This document shows positions 137 to 6,888 of a stretch of DNA of 6,930 bases, piece by piece (positions within the stretch are counted from its first letter, which is position 1; each line of letters opens with the position of its first letter). Where the stretch lies: positions 1-6,930 of IMG/VR virus record IMGVR_UViG_2778261572_000009. One strand, 5' to 3'. A program made the position numbers and the translations under genes. The notes beneath the pieces were generated by a model, which ran no database searches, was not told where the DNA came from, and saw only the letters and a program-made list of their open reading frames with translations. The DNA is from a virus. Taxonomy: Duplodnaviria; Heunggongvirae; Uroviricota; Caudoviricetes.

Positions 137-1099
137 TTAATACAGTTTTTTCGCGCAGTCCAGCCAGTCGCCTTTGAACGGACGCTTCATGTTTTCGATA
201 GCGTCGATGATGTCGTGGTGAACCAACTGTTCGTTCTGGATACCTACGCAACGACCGCCGTAACCTGCCAGCAGCAGATCGATAGCGTAAGCGCCCATAC
301 GGGAAGCCAGAATACGGTCGTAAGGCACCGGAGAACCACCGCGCTGGATGTGGCCCAGCACAGTTGCGCGGGTTTCACGACCGGTTTCTTTCTCGATGAA
401 ATGCGCCAGTTCGTCAACATCACACATATGTTCGGTAATCGCCACGATCGCGTGTTTTTTACCTTTCGCGATACCCGCTTTGATTTCATTTACCAGGTCT
501 TCACGGCTGAATTCAACTTCCGGAACCACAACGAATTCACAGCCACCGGCAATGGCCGCAGCCAGCGTCAGATCGCCACAATAACGGCCCATCACTTCCA
601 CCACGGAAATACGCTGGTGAGAAGAAGAGGTGTCACGCAGACGGTCGATCGCTTCTACAACGGTGCTCAGCGCAGTGAAGAAACCGATAGTGTAGTCAGT
701 GCCTTTGATGTCGTTGTCGATAGTGCCCGGCAGACCGATGCACGGGAAGCCCATTTCGGTCAGACGCATTGCACCCATGTAGGAACCGTCACCGCCGATA
801 ACCACCAGCGCGTCGATACCACGTTTTTTCAGGTTTTCGATAGCCACGGCGCGGATGTTCTCGTCGCGGAATTCCGGGAAGCGCGCAGAACCGAGGAACG
901 TACCGCCACGGTTGATCATGTCAGAAACGCTGTAACGGTCTAGCTGTACCATACGGTCTTCATACAGACCCAGATAGCCGTCATAAATGCCCATTACTTC
1001 CAGACCTTCTGTCAGCGCAGAACGAACAACCCCGCGAATTGCGGCGTTCATGCCTGGCGCATCACCGCCGCTTGTCAACACACCGATTTTCTTAATCAT
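137..1099 (-). CDS. pfkA: ATP-dependent 6-phosphofructokinase I
   Basis: The 352-aa minus-strand ORF contains the E. coli PfkA sequence from [23 protein letters not shown] to the C-terminal [13 protein letters not shown] place the start at the internal ATG (complement of 1097-1099), which gives 320 aa and is preceded by GAGG (revcomp of 1104-1107). The 32 codons upstream in the ORF track are an artefactual extension. Stop TAA at 137-139. Confidence 0.95.
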
Positions 1100-1185
1100 G
1101 ACTACCTCTGAACTTTGGAATGCAAAATAAAATCTGTTGCCGGAAGTCTTCTTGCACATCGAAGTGATCCAACGAATGTGCAAAT

Positions 1186-1279: not shown

Positions 1280-2182
1280 TTATGAAAGCATAGACCGTTT
1301 ACCCTCCCTGGGTACGACGGAACAGGGGTCCTGATGGATAATTACATCCGATCCCGGAAAACGCCGTAAAATAGCCTGCTCTACCTGATCCGCCACCATA
1401 TGTGCCTGAACCAAAGGCAGAGAGTCTTCCATTTCCAAATGAATCTGAATAAAGCGGGTCGGCCCTGACTGCCGCGTGCGAAGATCGTGAGCGCCGCTAA
1501 CACCCGGCCAGGAAGTCACGATATCAATAATTTCTTGCCGTTCCTCATCAGGCAATGCGCGATCCAGTAATGACTGTACCGCCTCATATCCCATGCGTAA
1601 CGCGCTATATAAAATATAGATGCCGATTCCCAATGCAAACAGAGCATCGGCGCGATGCCAGCCGTACCAGGACAACCCCAGCGCCAGCAGAATTGCGCCG
1701 TTCATCATAACATCAGACTGGTAATGTAGCATATCAGCCCGCACCGCCTGGCTTTGCGTCCGGCGCACCACCCAACGCTGAAACGAGACAAGGATAATCG
1801 TACAAATTAGCGCCACAATTGTCACGATAACCCCGACGCCTGGATCTGTCATCGGTGTTGGAGATATCAGATGTTGAATACCCGTCAAAAACAGGAATAG
1901 TGCCGAACCGGAGATAAACATACTTTGCGCCAGCGCCGCGAGGGACTCTGCTTTACCGTGACCAAACGAGTGATTATCGTCGGCAGGTTGCAGGGAATAT
2001 CGCACCACCAGTAAATTCGTCAACGACGCGCCGATATCCACCAGCGAATCCACCAGCGCGGCGAGAATACTCACCGACCCGGTATACCACCATGCAAAAA
2101 TTTTAATCAGCAATAGCAACGAAGCCATCGCCGTCGCAGCAATCGCCGCCCGACTGACCAGCCGTCCATAAGATTGATTCAT
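1280..2182 (-). CDS. fieF: Cation diffusion facilitator family metal (Fe2+/Zn2+) efflux pump FieF/YiiP
   Basis: Translation from [25 protein letters not shown] to [10 protein letters not shown] matches FieF (YiiP), 300 aa, with the hydrophobic TM segments and HSFGHGKAE motif typical of CDF transporters. Start is ATG at complement 2180-2182, preceded by GGGAG. The ORF-track start at 2200 is a TTG-initiated extension. The fieF-pfkA adjacency matches E. coli gene order. Confidence 0.93.
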
Positions 2183-2263
2183 AAATACTCCCGCTATCAA
2201 CTGACGCTAGTATAACGGAAGCAAATCATCTGCAATGCATTAAGCAGCAGGCAAATTGAGGAT

Positions 2264-2417: not shown

Positions 2418-2636
2418 TCACATCCACATAATTTGCTGCCCTGACGGCAACGGGTGCGGCCTCACGGCGTGGACTTCTCCCGGCTTCACGATGTATCTCT
2501 GTACCGACTCATAAGTGATGAACGTGGCGCTGCAATTCACGTTCTGGCACTGGTGATAACGCTCTTTTGTCGTGTCAGTGATATAGCGGCTTGTACGCGC
2601 ATGTGCGGCATGCTGGCATAAAGGACAATGAAACAT
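2418..2636 (-). CDS. ogr: P2-type late gene transcriptional activator Ogr (zinc-finger, Ogr/Delta family)
   Basis: The 72-aa product MFHCPLCQHAAHARTSRYITDTTKERYHQCQNVNCSATFITYESVQRYIVKPGEVHAVRPHPLPSGQQIMWM matches P2 Ogr as I remember it, with the CxxC...CxxxxC zinc-binding arrangement. Start is the internal ATG (complement 2634-2636) preceded by AGAGG; the 21-codon extension in the ORF track is rejected. It lies directly downstream of the gpD-like ORF, as in P2 (D-ogr-att). Confidence 0.85.
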   Translation of the reverse strand: MFHCPLCQHAAHARTSRYITDTTKERYHQCQNVNCSATFITYESVQRYIVKPGEVHAVRPHPLPSGQQIMWM

Positions 2637-2670
2637 CGCGAGCACCTCTTCCGGTTTTGTTGATGGTGCC

Positions 2671-2699
2671 ATTTTAGTTAAATTACCCTTATAAAACAA
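2671..2699 (-). promoter_or_regulatory. Candidate sigma70 promoter for ogr (-35 TTGTTT, 17 bp, -10 TAAAAT)
   Basis: On the minus strand, TTGTTT (complement of 2694-2699) and TAAAAT (complement of 2671-2676) are separated by 17 nt, inside the 81-bp D-ogr intergenic region and about 35 nt upstream of the ogr ATG. Confidence 0.35.
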
Positions 2700-2717: not shown

Positions 2718-4178
2718 TCACTCATCATCTTCTGTTTCGTACTCCACATCAGAAAGCCTGACCTCAAGCTCTAAGGACGTCGTGAAGCCGCTATTATTCA
2801 GAAAATGTGTCACCTTAGTGATTGTCCAGTCCTGCTCGTCTATGACGCGCTTAAAGCCTGACACTTTAACCGGTGTTTCCGTGTAAATATCTGCCCGACC
2901 GGTAGCCAGGCTGATGGAAAACTCCGCGACGCCCCGTTGCAGTTTGTCCCACTTCGCCTGAGCGGCGCGCATGGCCTGCGCTTTCGTGGCATATACCGTG
3001 GTCAGTGCAAAAACGTTGTCAGCCTCACCGGCCATGTATTCACCTTCGCGCGCTTCCGGTACTTTAGGCGCTTTCTTCTGCGTGACTGGTTTCGCTTTCG
3101 GGTGCTCCAGTGCGCGCAGGTGTTTCTCTTTCTTTTTGCGTTTCAGTTTTACCTTCTGCTTTTGCGGCTTCGGGTCTTTGGTGTGTAACCACTTTGCCGT
3201 TACGCCGGTATAGGCTCCACGGTCAGCAATCGCAAAATGATGACGGTCACCGTCGCTGCGGGTGAGGGTAATCTGCGGGATTTTTTTACCGCTGGCAGTC
3301 ACCCCCTGCCCCGCTTTGAGAAACAGCAGTTTTCCCATTTTTACCGACACCTCACCGCCGTTGCGTTCAGCAAGACGGGTCAGGAATTTCGCATCAGACT
3401 CCTGCGACTGGTCGATGTGCGGGATTTTAATTCCGGCCAGTGACGGAGCGACACTGGCTTTCAGCCTGTTACGGGTGGCCACCCCGACATTGGACAGCGT
3501 TTTATGCCAGCCCTGCTCCTGGTCGATTCTGGCACGCAGACCCAGCGCACGGGCGGTGGCATACGCGGTGGCGGTGGTGCTGGTGACCGTATCCCATGCG
3601 AGGAAATCCGGCCAGATGACCATCAGCTCACGCTGGCTGAAATTCTGGCGGTAGGCTTTCACCTCGGAAATGGTCTTACAGCCCCATGCGCTGATATACC
3701 CGAAAGCGCGCAGCTTCTGACAGACGGATACCAGTGCAACAGCCACCTCTTTGGTGTCCAGTCCCGGCACACCGAGAATACGCGGTTTAACACCGGTTAC
3801 CGACTCCGCCGCCAGCAGGGCTTTCAGTCCGGTGTACTGACCGTTTTCGTCGGTGGTGCCGATGATATTGGAAACGGTCTGCGCAAGTTTCGTTTCCTCG
3901 TCGTCGCCGGTGCCGTCTTCCACACGCACGACAACGGTGACCGGTTTTGACTGGTCGGCGATGGCCTGCAACGATGCCGCCAGCGTGCCTTTTTTACCGG
4001 CCTTTGCAATTGCGCTCTGCACATTGGTAATCAGCACTGGTTTATTGAGGGGGAAGATTTCCGCATCCGCATCGCTGGCCGTGCAGACCATGCCAACAAT
4101 GGCGGTGGATACGGTGGAAATGACGCGGGTGCCGTCGTTAATCTCCAGCACCTGCACGCCGTGATGATAGTCACTCAT
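2718..4178 (-). CDS. Chimeric ORF: N-terminal ~233 aa of P2-like tail sheath protein (gpFI) fused in frame to C-terminal ~250 aa of P2-like tail protein D (gpD); deletion remnant, probably non-functional
   Basis: Residues 1-233 (MSDYHHGVQVLEINDGTRVISTVSTAIVGM ... GWHKTLSNVGV) match the N-terminus of P2-family tail sheath proteins from memory. From about residue 234 (ATRNRLKASVAPSLAGIKIPHIDQSQESDAKFLTRLAERNGG ... VRLSDVEYETEDDE) the sequence matches the C-terminal part of P2 gpD. The RBS GGAG (revcomp of 4187-4190) lies 8 nt upstream of the ATG at 4176-4178. The ORF is intact, but the FI C-terminus, FII, E/E', T, U and the D N-terminus expected between these halves are absent. Confidence 0.8.
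   Translation of the reverse strand: MSDYHHGVQVLEINDGTRVISTVSTAIVGMVCTASDADAEIFPLNKPVLITNVQSAIAKAGKKGTLAASLQAIADQSKPVTVVVRVEDGTGDDEETKLAQTVSNIIGTTDENGQYTGLKALLAAESVTGVKPRILGVPGLDTKEVAVALVSVCQKLRAFGYISAWGCKTISEVKAYRQNFSQRELMVIWPDFLAWDTVTSTTATAYATARALGLRARIDQEQGWHKTLSNVGVATRNRLKASVAPSLAGIKIPHIDQSQESDAKFLTRLAERNGGEVSVKMGKLLFLKAGQGVTASGKKIPQITLTRSDGDRHHFAIADRGAYTGVTAKWLHTKDPKPQKQKVKLKRKKKEKHLRALEHPKAKPVTQKKAPKVPEAREGEYMAGEADNVFALTTVYATKAQAMRAAQAKWDKLQRGVAEFSISLATGRADIYTETPVKVSGFKRVIDEQDWTITKVTHFLNNSGFTTSLELEVRLSDVEYETEDDE
3470..3490 (-). other. Deletion junction inside the FI::D fusion ORF (novel joint between sheath and gpD coding sequence)
   Basis: The sheath-like sequence ends at codon 233 (GTG, complement of 3480-3482) and the gpD-like sequence begins at codon 234 (GCC, complement of 3477-3479). 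The exact breakpoint cannot be fixed without the parental sequences. Confidence 0.6.
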
Positions 4179-4270: not shown

Positions 4271-4305
4271 AGATAAAGAAAAGGCAGGCAATTCGCCCGC
4301 CTGTC
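4271..4305 (-). terminator. Weak terminator-like hairpin plus T-rich tract between the orphan ORF and the FI::D ORF
   Basis: On the minus strand, GACAGGC-GGGCGAATT-GCCTGCC (revcomp of 4283-4305; 6 of 7 stem positions pair) is followed by TTTTCTTTATCT (revcomp of 4271-4282). Confidence 0.3.
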
Positions 4306-4497
4306 CTGATTTGTACTCACTCATTTTCCGACTGACAATTTACATAGCCAAAACGCTATCAAATCTGACAGTCTGCTTTGAGCGAGGAGCAGAGGTTAGT
4401 TTTAGTTAACCAAAATGATAAAAAGCAGTAGAAAAATCCGCTCATTACGTTATGGTTATAAGCCGCACATAATCATCCGAGCCAAATCCTCTTGATT

Positions 4498-5397
4498 TCA
4501 AAGAATTAGCACTTGCTCTTCACTAGAAACTATGGTTCTGACTTCACGCTCAAATATTGGATCCATTATCATTTTTCTATTTGTTGGAATAGTAAATTTA
4601 CCGAGTACCATGACAATGCTACTCAACGGAAATAATTTTGGAGTAACATTTCCTAATTGAATCGTAGGATATATATTAAAGCCCCCTTTTATCCTCATTG
4701 GCGAACCTTCAATGAAGTGTCGATAATTAAATTTCGCCATAGGGATTCTCGCCACATGCACTTTCATAATTACAGCAACCTGAGCTATTTTTACTTTCTG
4801 GAGGTAAGTTGACAATCGTTCTAACTGCGTTGTTTCATAGAAAAAATCAGACCACGTTACAGTACTTGTTCCAGTAACAATTTTTATGCTGTTTCTCTTG
4901 TTGGGGTGAGCTTTTCCATATTCATAGATCTCCCGTAAGCTATCCATGTTCTTCACATAAGGGGCTTTCCGACCTCTCTTGACATAAACGCGGTCTGTAG
5001 TATCAGAAGGTGGATTTGCCTGCATAGCTGCAGCTTTTCTGCTTAATTTAGAGATATCATCTTCATCGAGTATATGTATACGGAATATATTATTACCTGT
5101 GGCAAGCGCACGGCTGATATCATGACTGGAATCACTTGCATAAATTGTATTCAATCCTGAAGTTCCATACTGGCATAATTTGTCATGCGTGAAATTTTTT
5201 TCCAGTCTAAAGAAGGCGGGGATATGCAAGGTTTTATTAAAACTCCGACGAATATGGCTTTTGACATACACCAAATGAGCAGAGCAATTTGGGTCAGGAC
5301 ATTTGAGTGGATAGGGATTAACACTATAATTAAAAGTATTTACATTTACTAAAATCTGATTGTTATCAATAGCCTGAGTTATACGAATACCACTCAT
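4498..5397 (-). CDS. Hypothetical protein, 299 aa, AT-rich cargo gene in the prophage G-FI (Z/fun) variable slot; function unknown, candidate defence or lysogenic-conversion factor
   Basis: A 900-bp uninterrupted ORF with ATG at complement 5395-5397 preceded by GGAGGAG (revcomp of 5401-5407) at good spacing. Hand-counted GC is about 30-38% on sample lines, versus about 70% in the adjacent sheath/D ORF. It is flanked by 215-bp and 319-bp spacers with no convincing ORFs. I recognise no protein family in it. Confidence 0.75.
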   Translation of the reverse strand: MSGIRITQAIDNNQILVNVNTFNYSVNPYPLKCPDPNCSAHLVYVKSHIRRSFNKTLHIPAFFRLEKNFTHDKLCQYGTSGLNTIYASDSSHDISRALATGNNIFRIHILDEDDISKLSRKAAAMQANPPSDTTDRVYVKRGRKAPYVKNMDSLREIYEYGKAHPNKRNSIKIVTGTSTVTWSDFFYETTQLERLSTYLQKVKIAQVAVIMKVHVARIPMAKFNYRHFIEGSPMRIKGGFNIYPTIQLGNVTPKLFPLSSIVMVLGKFTIPTNRKMIMDPIFEREVRTIVSSEEQVLIL

Positions 5398-5536
5398 TAC
5401 TCCTCCATAAAGATAGGCGCAAGCATTTAGTAATAAACCATTAACATGCCGAGATCATACCCGATCATTGAAATGTAAACACTCCCCTAAGACGGCTGCT
5501 GGCATAATATTTTATGACATCAGCAATGCCCACCTC

Positions 5537-5578
5537 TGGCACAGAGTGGACTGTCAGATTAGGCTTTACTCTGTGCCA
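5537..5578. repeat. 11-bp perfect inverted repeat with 20-nt spacer between gene G and the orphan ORF
   Basis: TGGCACAGAGT (5537-5547) / ACTCTGTGCCA (5568-5578). It lies 35 nt downstream of the G stop and about 140 nt upstream of the orphan ORF start on the minus strand. No adjacent U-tract. Confidence 0.4.
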
Positions 5579-5612: not shown

Positions 5613-6140
5613 TTATTGCGGCATTTCCGGCCATTCAGGATTTGCAGGATCCACACGACTGACCAGAACACTATAGCGTTCCCATGCCTCCAGTCGACTA
5701 CGCTCCTCATCTGTTGCCATATTCAGCCTGACCGCGCGCTCCAGCGGCAAAATCACGGATTCAGCTTCGGAAAGCAAAGCTGCCTTATGTAATTCCGCCA
5801 GTTTCTGCTGTTCGTCTGCCGTATAAATCCGCTTAATCACGGCACCATCCTTAAACATCCATTTACCTGAGTCGTCAGCACGTCGGTTGGAGGTAATATC
5901 AGGAACCTCAACAACGCTAAAACCTTCAGGATTAAGCGTTGAAGCATCTCTGGTGATAGCGACAATAATATTATTTTCATCGTAAACAATCTTTATTGTG
6001 TCTGGCTGAAAGTTCTTCACTTCCTCATACCAGTTTTTTCCGTCCTCAGAGTAAAGCCAGATAACTCCGTGTTTCTTTGTTAACTCATACTGTTCCAGTG
6101 TTTTAGCGTTACCCGCTTTTATGTTCTTTAAGTGCATCAT
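5613..6140 (-). CDS. G: Tail fibre assembly protein (P2 gpG-like Tfa chaperone)
   Basis: The 175-aa product begins [23 protein letters not shown]...[20 protein letters not shown]...[34 protein letters not shown], matching the conserved N-terminal domain of P2 gpG tail-fibre assembly proteins. Its start lies 1 nt after the TAA of the upstream tail-fibre ORF, the usual fibre-chaperone coupling. Confidence 0.85.
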
Positions 6141-6141
6141 A

Positions 6142-6888
6142 TTAAACGCTCGCTACATTATACCAGGTGCCATTTATATACTTTTGAACGGGTCTGTAAT
6201 AAACGCCCGCTATATTATCGGCAGAGTTGGACCCTGTATCCTGAACATTAATACCAGACAATACATGACCTGACGGGCACTGGAAATTCCATGTTTGCCA
6301 GTTGTTCACTCCATAATATTGCTGTGACCCAAGTCGAACATCTTTCACATATCTGGAATCAAAATTGCCATAGTTGCCAGGAATAACTTGCGAGCCACAA
6401 AGCCAGTTACCGTTATTATCCATGTACGCCTGACCATCGGTGCCATTGGCTGTCCTTGAGTTATTAATCATGTAGATGCCAAATTGCTTGTTCCCCAGTC
6501 CACCTATCATGAACTTGCGGTCAGCGTGATTCTGGCGAAGCAACGCCTGAGCGCTATCAGTGTTAACTATATTTTTCCCAAAGATAGCGTTGTTATCGCG
6601 CATCTGAATCCACATACCATTACTGCTGTTAATAGCAAAACGGTCTGAAAGCGTCTCCCCTGAAACATTAAGGCCACGCCCCATCGAAACAGCGCCAGTA
6701 GCGTTATTAATCCATAATGGCCTTAATCCGTTATAAGTCCCCATGTTGTCACCGGAGTTTGTCAACATGAAGTATGTATTTGAACCATCATTACGAATAA
6801 AGAATCCGTAATTACCATAAGCAATACGTAGGCCGTTTGCTGATTTTGATATGACTTCGCCATTTACAATGGCATTGCGTATTTTCAT
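6142..6888 (-). CDS. Tail fibre protein, C-terminal receptor-binding module (gpH-like distal part), encoded as a separate 248-aa ORF
   Basis: The translation contains motifs I associate with distal tail-fibre domains ([18 protein letters not shown]...[17 protein letters not shown]) and sits immediately upstream of the cognate assembly gene G. The first ATG (complement 6886-6888) is preceded 4 codons upstream by an in-frame TGA and has only a weak Shine-Dalgarno sequence. Confidence 0.7.

What the first reader, a model, noticed from the sequence alone, without database searches (positions are those of the whole stretch)
5173..5301. Cys/His cluster near the N-terminus of the orphan protein (possible metal-binding or nuclease-like motif)
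Residues C33, C38, H41, H48, H58, H71 and C75 (CPDPNCSAHLVYVKSHIRRSFNKTLHIPAFFRLEKNFTHDKLC) form a compact Cys/His-rich segment, followed by an acidic stretch (HILDEDDISK) and a very basic stretch (RVYVKRGRKAPYVKNMDSLREIYEYGKAHPNKRNSIK). This could be a zinc-ribbon or treble-clef element, or a nuclease active site (HNH-, PD-(D/E)xK- or HEPN-like), but the spacing matches no canonical motif I can state with confidence. It does give concrete residues to mutate.
Basis: inference. Interest (0 to 1): 0.5.

Follow-up and report, generated by a model that had tools for sequence, protein, structure and literature searches.

The report
Zinc-binding site in prophage cargo protein
The Cys/His cluster is real, but only four of its seven residues matter: they look like a structural zinc-binding site, not a nuclease centre, in an uncharacterised and probably nucleic-acid-binding protein that P2-like prophages and other mobile elements carry in their cargo slots.

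Summary
The segment 5173-5301 (minus strand) encodes exactly the peptide quoted, with the stated residue numbers. The protein is the 299-aa ORF 4498-5397 (-), which is phage Wphi orf44/gp44, RefSeq WP_000014361.1 and phrog_7195. It sits in a 1.14-kb low-GC cassette that replaces fun(Z) in the gpG/gpFI cargo slot of a decayed P2-like prophage.

An exhaustive profile search found 152 relatives. In 138 full-length members (mean column identity 19%), C33, C38, H71 and C75 are effectively universal. The pattern is C-x2/4-C...H-x3-C. H41 and H58 are not conserved, and H48 is only an aromatic position. The 'DEDD' stretch is conserved only in the close clade.

No nuclease signature (HNH, PD-(D/E)xK, HEPN) survives testing. 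Relatives are solitary genes in phages, conjugative elements, plasmids and defence-island-like contexts.

Verdict: a structural Cys3His zinc site in a probable nucleic-acid-binding cargo protein. A defence role is plausible but untested.

The parts
5173..5301 (-). Cys3His zinc-knuckle segment (residues 33-75). Ligands are C33 (5299-5301), C38 (5284-5286), H71 (5185-5187) and C75 (5173-5175).
   Evidence: Translation. Family-wide invariance. Spacing is C-x2-C (65 members) or C-x4-C (66 members), and H-x3-C in 133/138.
5158..5310 (-). Conserved zinc module (residues 30-80). It is a predicted short-strand beta meander (strands 41-45, 48-52, 55-59, 62-65) flanked by the two knuckles. It carries conserved Y44, H/Y48, R50, F62, F63, R64 and Y77.
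   Evidence: DSSP of model m314ab514bcc3, block pLDDT 85-96. It is the most conserved region of the protein: mean pairwise identity 0.30 against 0.19 for the OB region.
4789..5157 (-). Middle alpha/beta domain (residues 81-203). It carries the conserved S90, R106, Y147, T/S150, W182, F185-Y187 and E/D188, and includes the clade-specific 'DEDD' (111-114) at the N-cap of helix 112-127.
   Evidence: No structural or sequence family could be assigned.
4501..4788 (-). C-terminal OB-fold domain (residues 204-299), the most variable part of the family.
4498..5397 (-). Whole gene: 299-aa protein, equal to Wphi orf44/gp44, WP_000014361.1 and phrog_7195.
4398..5536 (.). Swapped-in cargo cassette in the P2 gpG/gpFI (Z/fun) slot, with low GC (0.35-0.39).
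   Evidence: Homology to canonical P2 ends at 4397 and resumes at 5537. P2 has fun(Z) here on the opposite strand. Composition.
5504..5532 (-). Sigma-70-like promoter candidate (TGGGCA-17-TATTAT) at the cassette edge. A GGAGGAG Shine-Dalgarno lies just before the ATG at 5397.
   Evidence: This is a consensus match only, and function is inferred.
4282..4302 (-). Terminator-like GC hairpin plus T-run downstream of the gene, upstream of the PF late promoter region.
   Evidence: This is a consensus match only.

Best explanation
C33, C38, H71 and C75 form a structural tetrahedral Zn(II) site of the Cys3His type. It is built from two knuckles, C-x2/4-C and H-x3-C, and it staples a small all-beta module at the N-terminus of the protein. 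That module is the most conserved part of a roughly 300-aa family (phrog_7195). It displays conserved aromatic and basic side chains (Y44, H/Y48, R50, F62, F63, R64, Y77). An alpha/beta domain follows, then a variable C-terminal OB fold, and the whole protein is strongly basic. The protein is therefore most likely a non-catalytic nucleic-acid-binding factor for ssDNA or RNA, in which the zinc module and the OB fold supply the binding surfaces. It is carried as an autonomous cargo ('moron') cassette in the P2 Z/fun slot. Its relatives are solitary cargo genes on other phages, conjugative elements and plasmids. Its likeliest biological role is in conflict between mobile elements: exclusion of, or defence against, incoming phage by binding a replication or recombination intermediate or an RNA. 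Status of each step: ligand conservation, the fold class of the OB domain, and the cargo context are shown. Zinc binding, nucleic-acid binding and the defence role are inferred.
Against: The three-dimensional proximity of the four ligands could not be measured, because model coordinates are not exposed. No metal or binding data exist. The conserved non-ligand residues (R106, Y147, W182, F185, Q295) could be purely structural, or could form an unrecognised active site. The OB domain, which should be a binding surface, has no conserved aromatic or basic positions. The N-terminal 200 residues have no assigned fold, so an enzymatic core cannot be excluded. No PADLOC model matches, and no experiment links the gene to phage resistance. 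Six of 138 members give weak ThsB/TIR-like hits that I could not place.
Confidence: 0.6

Rival explanations
1. The segment, together with the DEDD stretch, is a nuclease active site of the HNH, PD-(D/E)xK or HEPN type, and the protein kills phage or host nucleic acid.
For: In the close Enterobacterales clade, H108, D111, D113 and D114 are invariant. An acidic pair at 113-114 persists down to about 29% identity. R64-x6-H71 fits the HEPN R-x4-6-H pattern in 86/138 members. Many hotspot cargo genes are nucleases (PMC9122126).
Confidence: 0.08
2. The four residues do bind zinc, but the module is a protein-interaction or oligomerisation element (BIR/zf-C3HC-like). The protein would then work by binding a phage or host protein rather than nucleic acid, as P2 Tin targets T4 gp32.
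For: The ligand pattern C-x2-C...H-x3-C is that of zf-C3HC (NuBaID, BIR-like), which gives the most recurrent weak Pfam hit (10/138; P0080 E = 0.0023). OB folds also mediate protein binding. The OB domain lacks conserved basic or aromatic residues. The precedent of P2 Tin is from general knowledge.
Against: All zf-C3HC scores are below the gathering cut-off (best 18.4 against 22.2 bits). The segment is predicted all-beta, not a BIR-type alpha/beta fold. The protein is strongly basic throughout, and the zinc module carries conserved Arg and aromatic residues typical of nucleic-acid surfaces.
Confidence: 0.17
3. The conserved N-terminal 200 residues are an unrecognised enzyme or signalling domain (for example a degenerate TIR-like or Rossmannoid fold). 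The zinc module would be an accessory and the OB fold a variable sensor.
For: The middle domain has a beta-alpha-beta-alpha repeat topology. Six of 138 members hit PADLOC ThsB1 (TIR-like), best E = 3.3e-4, and this is the only PADLOC model matched by more than one member. A conserved core with a variable C-terminus is the usual effector/sensor layout of immune proteins. S90, R106, Y147, T150 and E/D188 are conserved polar positions.
Confidence: 0.12
4. The cluster is a chance concentration of Cys and His with no specific role, or the ORF is not a real gene.
For: Within the single sequence the enrichment is only modest (P = 0.013 and 0.053). Three of the seven listed residues are indeed not conserved.
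Against: The four ligand columns are universal in a family with 19% mean identity. The gene has a strong Shine-Dalgarno sequence. It is full-length in 115 complete E. coli genomes. phrog_7195 recognises 135/138 members. The deep alignment yields a pLDDT 92 model.
Confidence: 0.02

Closest known systems
OB-fold plus zinc-module DNA binders: MCM10 internal domain, MCM/MCM8/MCM9 N-terminal domains, RPA70 DBD-C
   Different: There is no sequence similarity. Here the zinc module is N-terminal and separated from the OB fold by an alpha/beta domain of about 120 residues, rather than inserted in or abutting the OB fold. The ligand set is Cys3His with H-x3-C. The context is mobile-element cargo, not replication machinery.
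Anticodon-binding OB domain of class IIb aminoacyl-tRNA synthetases (AspRS, AsnRS, LysRS; tRNA_anti-like)
   Different: Only about a third of the query is matched (TMq 0.2-0.25). There is no synthetase catalytic domain, and no Pfam tRNA_anti match.
P2 lysogenic-conversion genes fun(Z), tin and old
   Same: The cargo slot is the same as that of fun(Z), between gpG and gpFI. It is a single gene with its own expression signals and foreign base composition. The slot is a documented hotspot for defence-like cargo (10.1101/2024.10.15.618418; PMC13586616).
   Different: Fun(Z) is 528 aa and on the opposite strand, and the P2 DNA in that slot shows no similarity to this cassette. No phenotype is known for this protein, whereas the cloned fun(Z) gene blocks T5 growth according to the P2 record's annotation; the published exclusion phenotypes of old and tin are from general knowledge.
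zf-C3HC / NuBaID BIR-like zinc finger (PF07967)
   Same: It has the same ligand pattern, C-x2-C...H-x3-C. It is the most recurrent weak Pfam hit (10/138 members, plus P0080).
   Different: Every score is below the gathering cut-off. The region is predicted all-beta/coil rather than a BIR fold.
CoiA N-terminal zinc finger (C-x2-C...P-H-F-x-H...C). Recalled from memory and not tested.
   Same: There is a superficially similar layout: a C-x-x-C knuckle, a beta-hairpin, a 'P-x-F-x-[HR]' strand (here V-P-A-F-F-R-L), and then a distal Cys.
   Different: There is no CoiA Pfam hit in any of the 138 members. CoiA continues into a PD-(D/E)xK nuclease domain whose motifs are absent here. This is a lead only.

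Membership tests
phrog_7195 (PHROGs, unknown function) | Full-length match to the family profile | tested here: met
   E = 9.9e-218 over residues 1-299 of a 299-position profile. 135 of 138 relatives also match.
Structural zinc site of zinc-ribbon / treble-clef type | Four Cys/His ligands in two short knuckles, conserved across the family | tested here: met
   The pattern is C-x2/4-C ... H-x3-C. H71 and C75 are present in 138/138. C33 and C38 are present in 134/138, and the rest are truncated.
Structural zinc site of zinc-ribbon / treble-clef type | Knuckles located at beta-hairpin turns or the start of a helix | tested here: inconclusive
   The DSSP string shows the first knuckle between a bridge at 30-31 and strand 41-45. 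The second lies in coil between strands 62-65 and 81-89. Strand pairing is not reported.
Structural zinc site of zinc-ribbon / treble-clef type | Four ligand atoms within bonding distance of one centre; zinc present | not testable with these tools
   Model coordinates are not exposed, and there is no metal analysis.
OB fold | Five-stranded barrel with a helix between beta3 and beta4, and structural similarity to known OB domains | tested here: met
HNH nuclease | Beta-beta-alpha-metal fold with conserved His...Asn...His/Asn | tested here: not met
   No Asn or His column reaches 50% within 38 residues after H71. There is no helix before residue 94, and no Pfam HNH hit.
PD-(D/E)xK nuclease | Conserved D ... 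(D/E)-x-K catalytic triad | tested here: not met
   No acidic column reaches 80% family-wide. D111, D113 and D114 occur in 24, 20 and 19 of 138 members. There are no Pfam or PADLOC hits.
HEPN RNase | R-x4-6-H motif in an all-alpha four-helix bundle | tested here: not met
   R64-x6-H71 holds in 86/138 members only. Arg is replaced or the spacing is 7-11 in the others. The region is predicted as strand and coil, and H71 is paired with C75.
Known anti-phage defence systems (PADLOC-DB 2.0) | Significant match to any defence-protein model | tested here: not met
   The window protein has 0 hits at E up to 10. Among 138 relatives there are only scattered weak hits, of which ThsB1 in 6 members (best 3.3e-4) is the only repeated one.
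Thoeris ThsB / TIR-like | Flavodoxin-like TIR fold with a catalytic Glu | tested here: inconclusive
   Six of 138 members give weak hits. There is no invariant Glu, no TIR among the listed structural hits, and no betaA signature. The middle domain could not be searched on its own.
P2 hotspot cargo ('moron') | Non-homologous insert between conserved phage genes, with foreign composition and its own expression signals | tested here: met
   The boundaries are 4397 and 5537 against P2. fun(Z) occupies the slot in P2. GC is 0.35-0.39 against roughly 0.45-0.59 in the flanking prophage and chromosomal DNA. Promoter-like and terminator-like sites are present, but these are consensus matches only.

The most novel reading that the evidence does not exclude
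phrog_7195 is a previously unrecognised, widespread single-gene system for conflict between mobile elements (anti-phage or anti-plasmid). It would have no enzymatic effector. A conserved zinc-stapled N-terminal core plus a rapidly diverging OB-fold 'reader' would bind a nucleic-acid intermediate of the invader and block its replication. P2-like phages carry it in the classical Z/fun slot, and it is retained after the prophage decays.
Probability: 0.3. Interest if true: 0.65.

Novelty: new variant of a known kind. Interest (0 to 1): 0.4.

Why it matters
The finding turns an 'orphan with a curious Cys/His patch' into a defined target. It is a family of at least 152 clusters, found in Pseudomonadota and Bacillota and on phages, conjugative elements and plasmids. 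It now has a confident structural model, four specific zinc ligands and a short list of conserved surface residues to mutate. It sits in one of the best-known lysogenic-conversion slots of phage P2, and it matches no Pfam, NCBIfam or PADLOC model. If it does protect against phage, it would add a non-enzymatic, nucleic-acid-binding type of single-gene defence. It would also explain why the gene survives intact in decayed prophage remnants in about 2% of complete E. coli genomes. If it does not, it is simply one more zinc-plus-OB DNA/RNA binder of unknown role.

Tried and rejected
1. Sequence searches of the window protein alone against Pfam, NCBIfam, PADLOC and PDB gave nothing.

2. AlphaFold with the shallow 12-sequence alignment gave a useless model for residues 34-152 (pLDDT below 50). 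It was replaced by the 138-sequence run.

3. The word-indexed homologue search reaches only relatives at 65% identity or above. It adds almost nothing even with the deep profile.

5. The AFDB50 fold library was unavailable.

6. A profile search of PDB sequences returned only a chance C2H2 finger at E = 9.7.

7. Longer family members were examined for informative fusions. None was found. P0088's NeuB/SAF tail looks like a chimeric or mis-called gene, and P0079 and P0080 have an extra 140-aa domain with no Pfam match.

8. A possible downstream partner gene (333-379 aa in three loci) was rejected, because the three proteins are unrelated.

9. Literature searches for Wphi orf44, the RefSeq accession, OB plus zinc single-gene defences, and the DefensePredictor main text and supplements found no mention of this protein.

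10. A TIR-like betaA signature was looked for at the start of the middle domain and not found.

11. Fe-S or redox readings were considered and set aside. The site has only three Cys plus one His in classical zinc-knuckle spacing, and there is no CDGSH-type or other cluster motif. This is inference.

Full report
**1. What is at the coordinates**

The window is an Escherichia chromosomal segment. It contains pfkA at about 137-1100 (-) and fieF at 1280-2200 (-), followed by the stump of a P2-like prophage. The prophage genes are ogr at 2418-2699 (-), a chimeric ORF at 2718-4178 (-), the 'orphan' at 4498-5397 (-), the tail-fibre assembly gene gpG at 5613-6140 (-), and the C-terminus of tail fibre gpH at 6142-6888 (-). 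The chimeric ORF joins the N-terminus of the sheath protein FI to the C-terminus of gpD.

The finding's coordinates 5173-5301 on the minus strand translate exactly to the quoted peptide. The residue numbers are right: Cys at 33, 38 and 75, and His at 41, 48, 58 and 71. These three Cys are the only ones in the protein.

Within this single sequence the clustering is only mildly unusual. Seven Cys/His in 43 residues gives a shuffle P of 0.013. All three Cys in 43 residues gives P of 0.053.

**2. The gene and its setting**

The gene is identical or at least 99.7% identical to orf44/gp44 of phage Wphi, and to 'hypothetical proteins' of two other P2-like phages. It is RefSeq WP_000014361.1 and a full-length member of phrog_7195, function unknown.

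Homology to canonical P2 stops at window 4397 and resumes at 5537. The intervening 1.14 kb has 35-39% GC, against roughly 45-59% in the flanking prophage and chromosomal DNA. In P2 the same slot, between gpG and gpFI, holds the lysogenic-conversion gene fun(Z), which is 528 aa and on the opposite strand.

This slot is a documented cargo hotspot of P2-like phages (PMC9122126; 10.1101/2024.10.15.618418; PMC13586616).

The cassette has a promoter-like site at its edge (5532-5504), a GGAGGAG ribosome-binding site, and a terminator-like hairpin downstream (4302-4282). These are consensus matches only.

The gene is in 117 of 5,426 complete E. coli genomes, always at 99% identity or above. In 69 of those genomes it lies in this same decayed remnant next to fieF. 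In the closest chromosome the sheath and baseplate-V genes are pseudogenes while this gene is intact.

**3. It is not an orphan**

The word-indexed search found only 12 clusters at 65% identity or above, all in Enterobacterales. An exhaustive HMM search of 1.84 billion representatives with that alignment found 152 proteins at E of 1e-3 or below. Nearly all are 290-330 aa.

I aligned 138 full-length members (A2, mean column identity 19%). phrog_7195 recognises 135 of them, so this is one coherent family.

No member matches a Pfam, NCBIfam or PADLOC family above threshold.

**4. The conservation test of the cluster**

In A2 only two columns are invariant, H71 and C75. Seven more are at least 90% conserved: C33, C38, R106, Y147, W182, F185 and Q295. 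The four sequences without C33/C38 are N-terminally truncated gene calls of 265-276 aa.

The first knuckle is C-x2-C in 65 members and C-x4-C in 66. The second is H-x3-C in 133 of 138. The linker between the knuckles is 26-38 residues, with a mode of 32. Of 825 Cys in the family, 406 sit in the three ligand columns.

H41 is 8% conserved and H58 is 12%. H48 is an aromatic H/Y/F position.

The pattern C-x2/4-C...H-x3-C, with two residues per knuckle, is the signature of a structural Cys3His zinc site. The only recurrent weak Pfam signals across the family are zinc modules: zf-C3HC in 10 members, plus PyrI_C, zf-Mss51 and two Zn ribbons. All are below threshold.

**5. The acidic and basic stretches**

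D111, D113 and D114 are invariant in the 12 close homologues. An acidic pair at 113-114 persists down to about 29% identity. Family-wide, however, these positions are acidic in only 24, 20 and 19 of 138 members. In the model they form the N-cap of helix 112-127.

No acidic column reaches 80% anywhere in the protein.

The basic stretch contains the conserved Y138, G142 and Y147.

**6. Structure**

With the 12-sequence alignment, AlphaFold failed on residues 34-152. With A2 it gave mean pLDDT 92.3 and pTM 0.86, with no segment below 50.

The model divides into four parts:
- Residues 1-29: a short N-terminal hairpin.
- Residues 30-80: the first knuckle, four short strands (41-45, 48-52, 55-59, 62-65), and then the H-x3-C knuckle in coil.
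- Residues 81-203: an alternating beta/alpha domain.
- Residues 204-299: beta1-beta3, a short helix, then beta4-beta5, which is the OB-fold order.

The fold searches agree on the OB class:
- Foldseek against the PDB returns AspRS anticodon-binding domains, SSBs, RPA/CST subunits, MCM10 and MCM N-terminal domains (best E = 1.7e-4, probability 1.0).
- The viral structure library gives AsnRS and phage SSBs.

TM-scores normalised to the query are 0.2-0.28, so about one third of the protein is matched. Assigning these hits to residues 204-299 is my inference from the strand order, because the tool prints no residue mapping.

OB hits fill the lists, so nothing can be said about the fold of the first 200 residues. 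I could not measure ligand distances either, because coordinates are not exposed.

**7. Where conservation and charge lie**

The zinc segment is the best-conserved region. Mean pairwise identity among distant members is 0.30, against 0.24 for the middle domain and 0.19 for the OB domain. Most distant profile hits align only over residues 3-200.

Conserved aromatic or basic positions in the zinc module are Y44, H/Y48, R50, F62, F63, R64 and Y77. Further ones are R106, Y147, W182 and F185-Y187.

Each region is net positive (+5, +5 and +6 in the window protein).

**8. Nuclease hypotheses tested**

- HNH: no Asn or His column reaches 50% in the 38 residues after H71, and there is no helix before residue 94.
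- PD-(D/E)xK: there are no conserved carboxylates.
- HEPN: R64-x6-H71 fits the R-x4-6-H pattern in 86 of 138 members. In the rest the Arg is replaced or the spacing is 7-11. The region is strand and coil rather than a helical bundle.
- No nuclease family or nuclease structure is hit.

**9. Context of relatives**

- One relative follows the integrase of a different P2-like phage, beside a GmrSD_N gene.
- One lies between an AbiTii gene and an unknown gene, near umuDC.
- One is near a GAPS4-type PD-(D/E)xK gene and an integrase.
- One follows a relaxase-like gene.
- One lies among Gram-positive conjugation genes: PrgI, a TraG-type ATPase, CHAP, sortase, MobC and Fic.
- Others are on a Bacillus paranthracis plasmid near a recombinase and NucA, and on a Pseudoalteromonas megaplasmid beside IS3 and DUF3265.

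The downstream neighbours are unrelated to each other. The family therefore behaves as a solitary cargo gene of mobile elements in at least two phyla.

**10. Interpretation**

The shown facts are a universal Cys3His tetrad in two knuckles, an OB fold, a basic protein, no conserved catalytic residues, and cargo status.

The inferred mechanism has three parts:
- The tetrad binds a structural zinc ion that holds the small beta module together.
- That module and the OB fold bind single-stranded DNA or RNA.
- The protein acts in conflicts between mobile elements, most likely by excluding incoming phage.

I put about 0.85 on the zinc site and about 0.6 on nucleic-acid binding. I put about 0.4-0.5 on a defence or exclusion role, and 0.6 on the explanation as a whole.

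Three rivals remain open:
- A protein-binding zinc module.
- An unrecognised enzymatic core in residues 81-203. Six of 138 members give weak ThsB/TIR-like hits that I could not place.
- A clade-specific nuclease, which is much less likely.

**11. Comparison and novelty**

The protein works like the OB-plus-zinc DNA binders (MCM10 internal domain, MCM N-terminal domain, RPA70 DBD-C). It is not a member of any of them. There is no sequence similarity, the domain order differs, and the ligand set is different.

It occupies the slot of P2 fun(Z) without being related to it.

No publication in the searchable library mentions it. Brenes & Laub 2025 is not held there and was not checked.

The zinc site itself is ordinary. 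The family is an undescribed combination of known parts, in a place where defence genes are expected. I score interest at 0.4 and rate novelty as a new variant of a known kind.

Noticed in passing
window 2718-4178 (-): An in-frame chimeric ORF of 486 aa joins the N-terminal ~233 residues of the P2 sheath protein FI (Pfam Phage_sheath_1) to the C-terminal part of gpD (Phage_GPD 234-463). Homology to the Wphi/P2 FI gene stops at window 3480. A deletion has therefore removed FII, E, T, U and the start of D.
   Followed up: partly
window 2756-3479, versus L020 (NZ_AP024561.1): The closest complete E. coli chromosomes lack this 724-bp gpD' piece as well, and carry further pseudogenes (sheath, baseplate V). 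They keep the 299-aa gene intact. No genome in the collection covers more than 85% of the window, so the window represents an intermediate stage of decay.
   Followed up: partly
window ~5536-5575 (-): A 10-bp perfect inverted repeat, GGCACAGAGT ... ACTCTGTGCC, with a 20-nt loop lies just after the gpG stop codon, inside P2-homologous DNA at the cassette boundary. It has no T-run, so it is not a typical intrinsic terminator. It could mark the recombination boundary of the cargo slot.
   Followed up: no
A2 alignment, family N-terminus (window residues 1-9; 5371-5397): The extreme N-terminus is strongly conserved across the family: M-G-I-K-M-x-x-A (G 70%, K/R about 80%, A 84%), and M-S-G-I-R-I-T-Q-A in the window clade. 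This is unusual for a protein's first residues and is unexplained.
   Followed up: no
A2 members (not located): Six of 138 family members give weak PADLOC ThsB1 (TIR-like) hits, best E = 3.3e-4. This is the only defence model matched by more than one member. I could not locate the region, and found no supporting structural or motif evidence.
   Followed up: partly
L015 7001-7951; L018 7001-7957; L019 6920-7852: Distant family members occur inside a Gram-positive conjugative element (PrgI, TraG-like ATPase, CHAP, sortase, MobC, Fic). They also occur on a Bacillus paranthracis plasmid, and on a Pseudoalteromonas megaplasmid next to a DUF3265 gene and IS3. From memory, DUF3265 is typical of integron cassettes.
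   Followed up: partly
P0079, P0080 (L007 107-1510): Two family members carry an extra C-terminal domain of about 140 aa with no Pfam match, followed by an overlapping 151-aa ORF. This may be an add-on module.
   Followed up: no
window 6142-6888 (-): The tail-fibre gpH C-terminus contains a T4 gp34-like trimerisation domain (PF21446, E = 1.2e-25). This fits the tail-fibre module swapping reported at this same hotspot.
   Followed up: no
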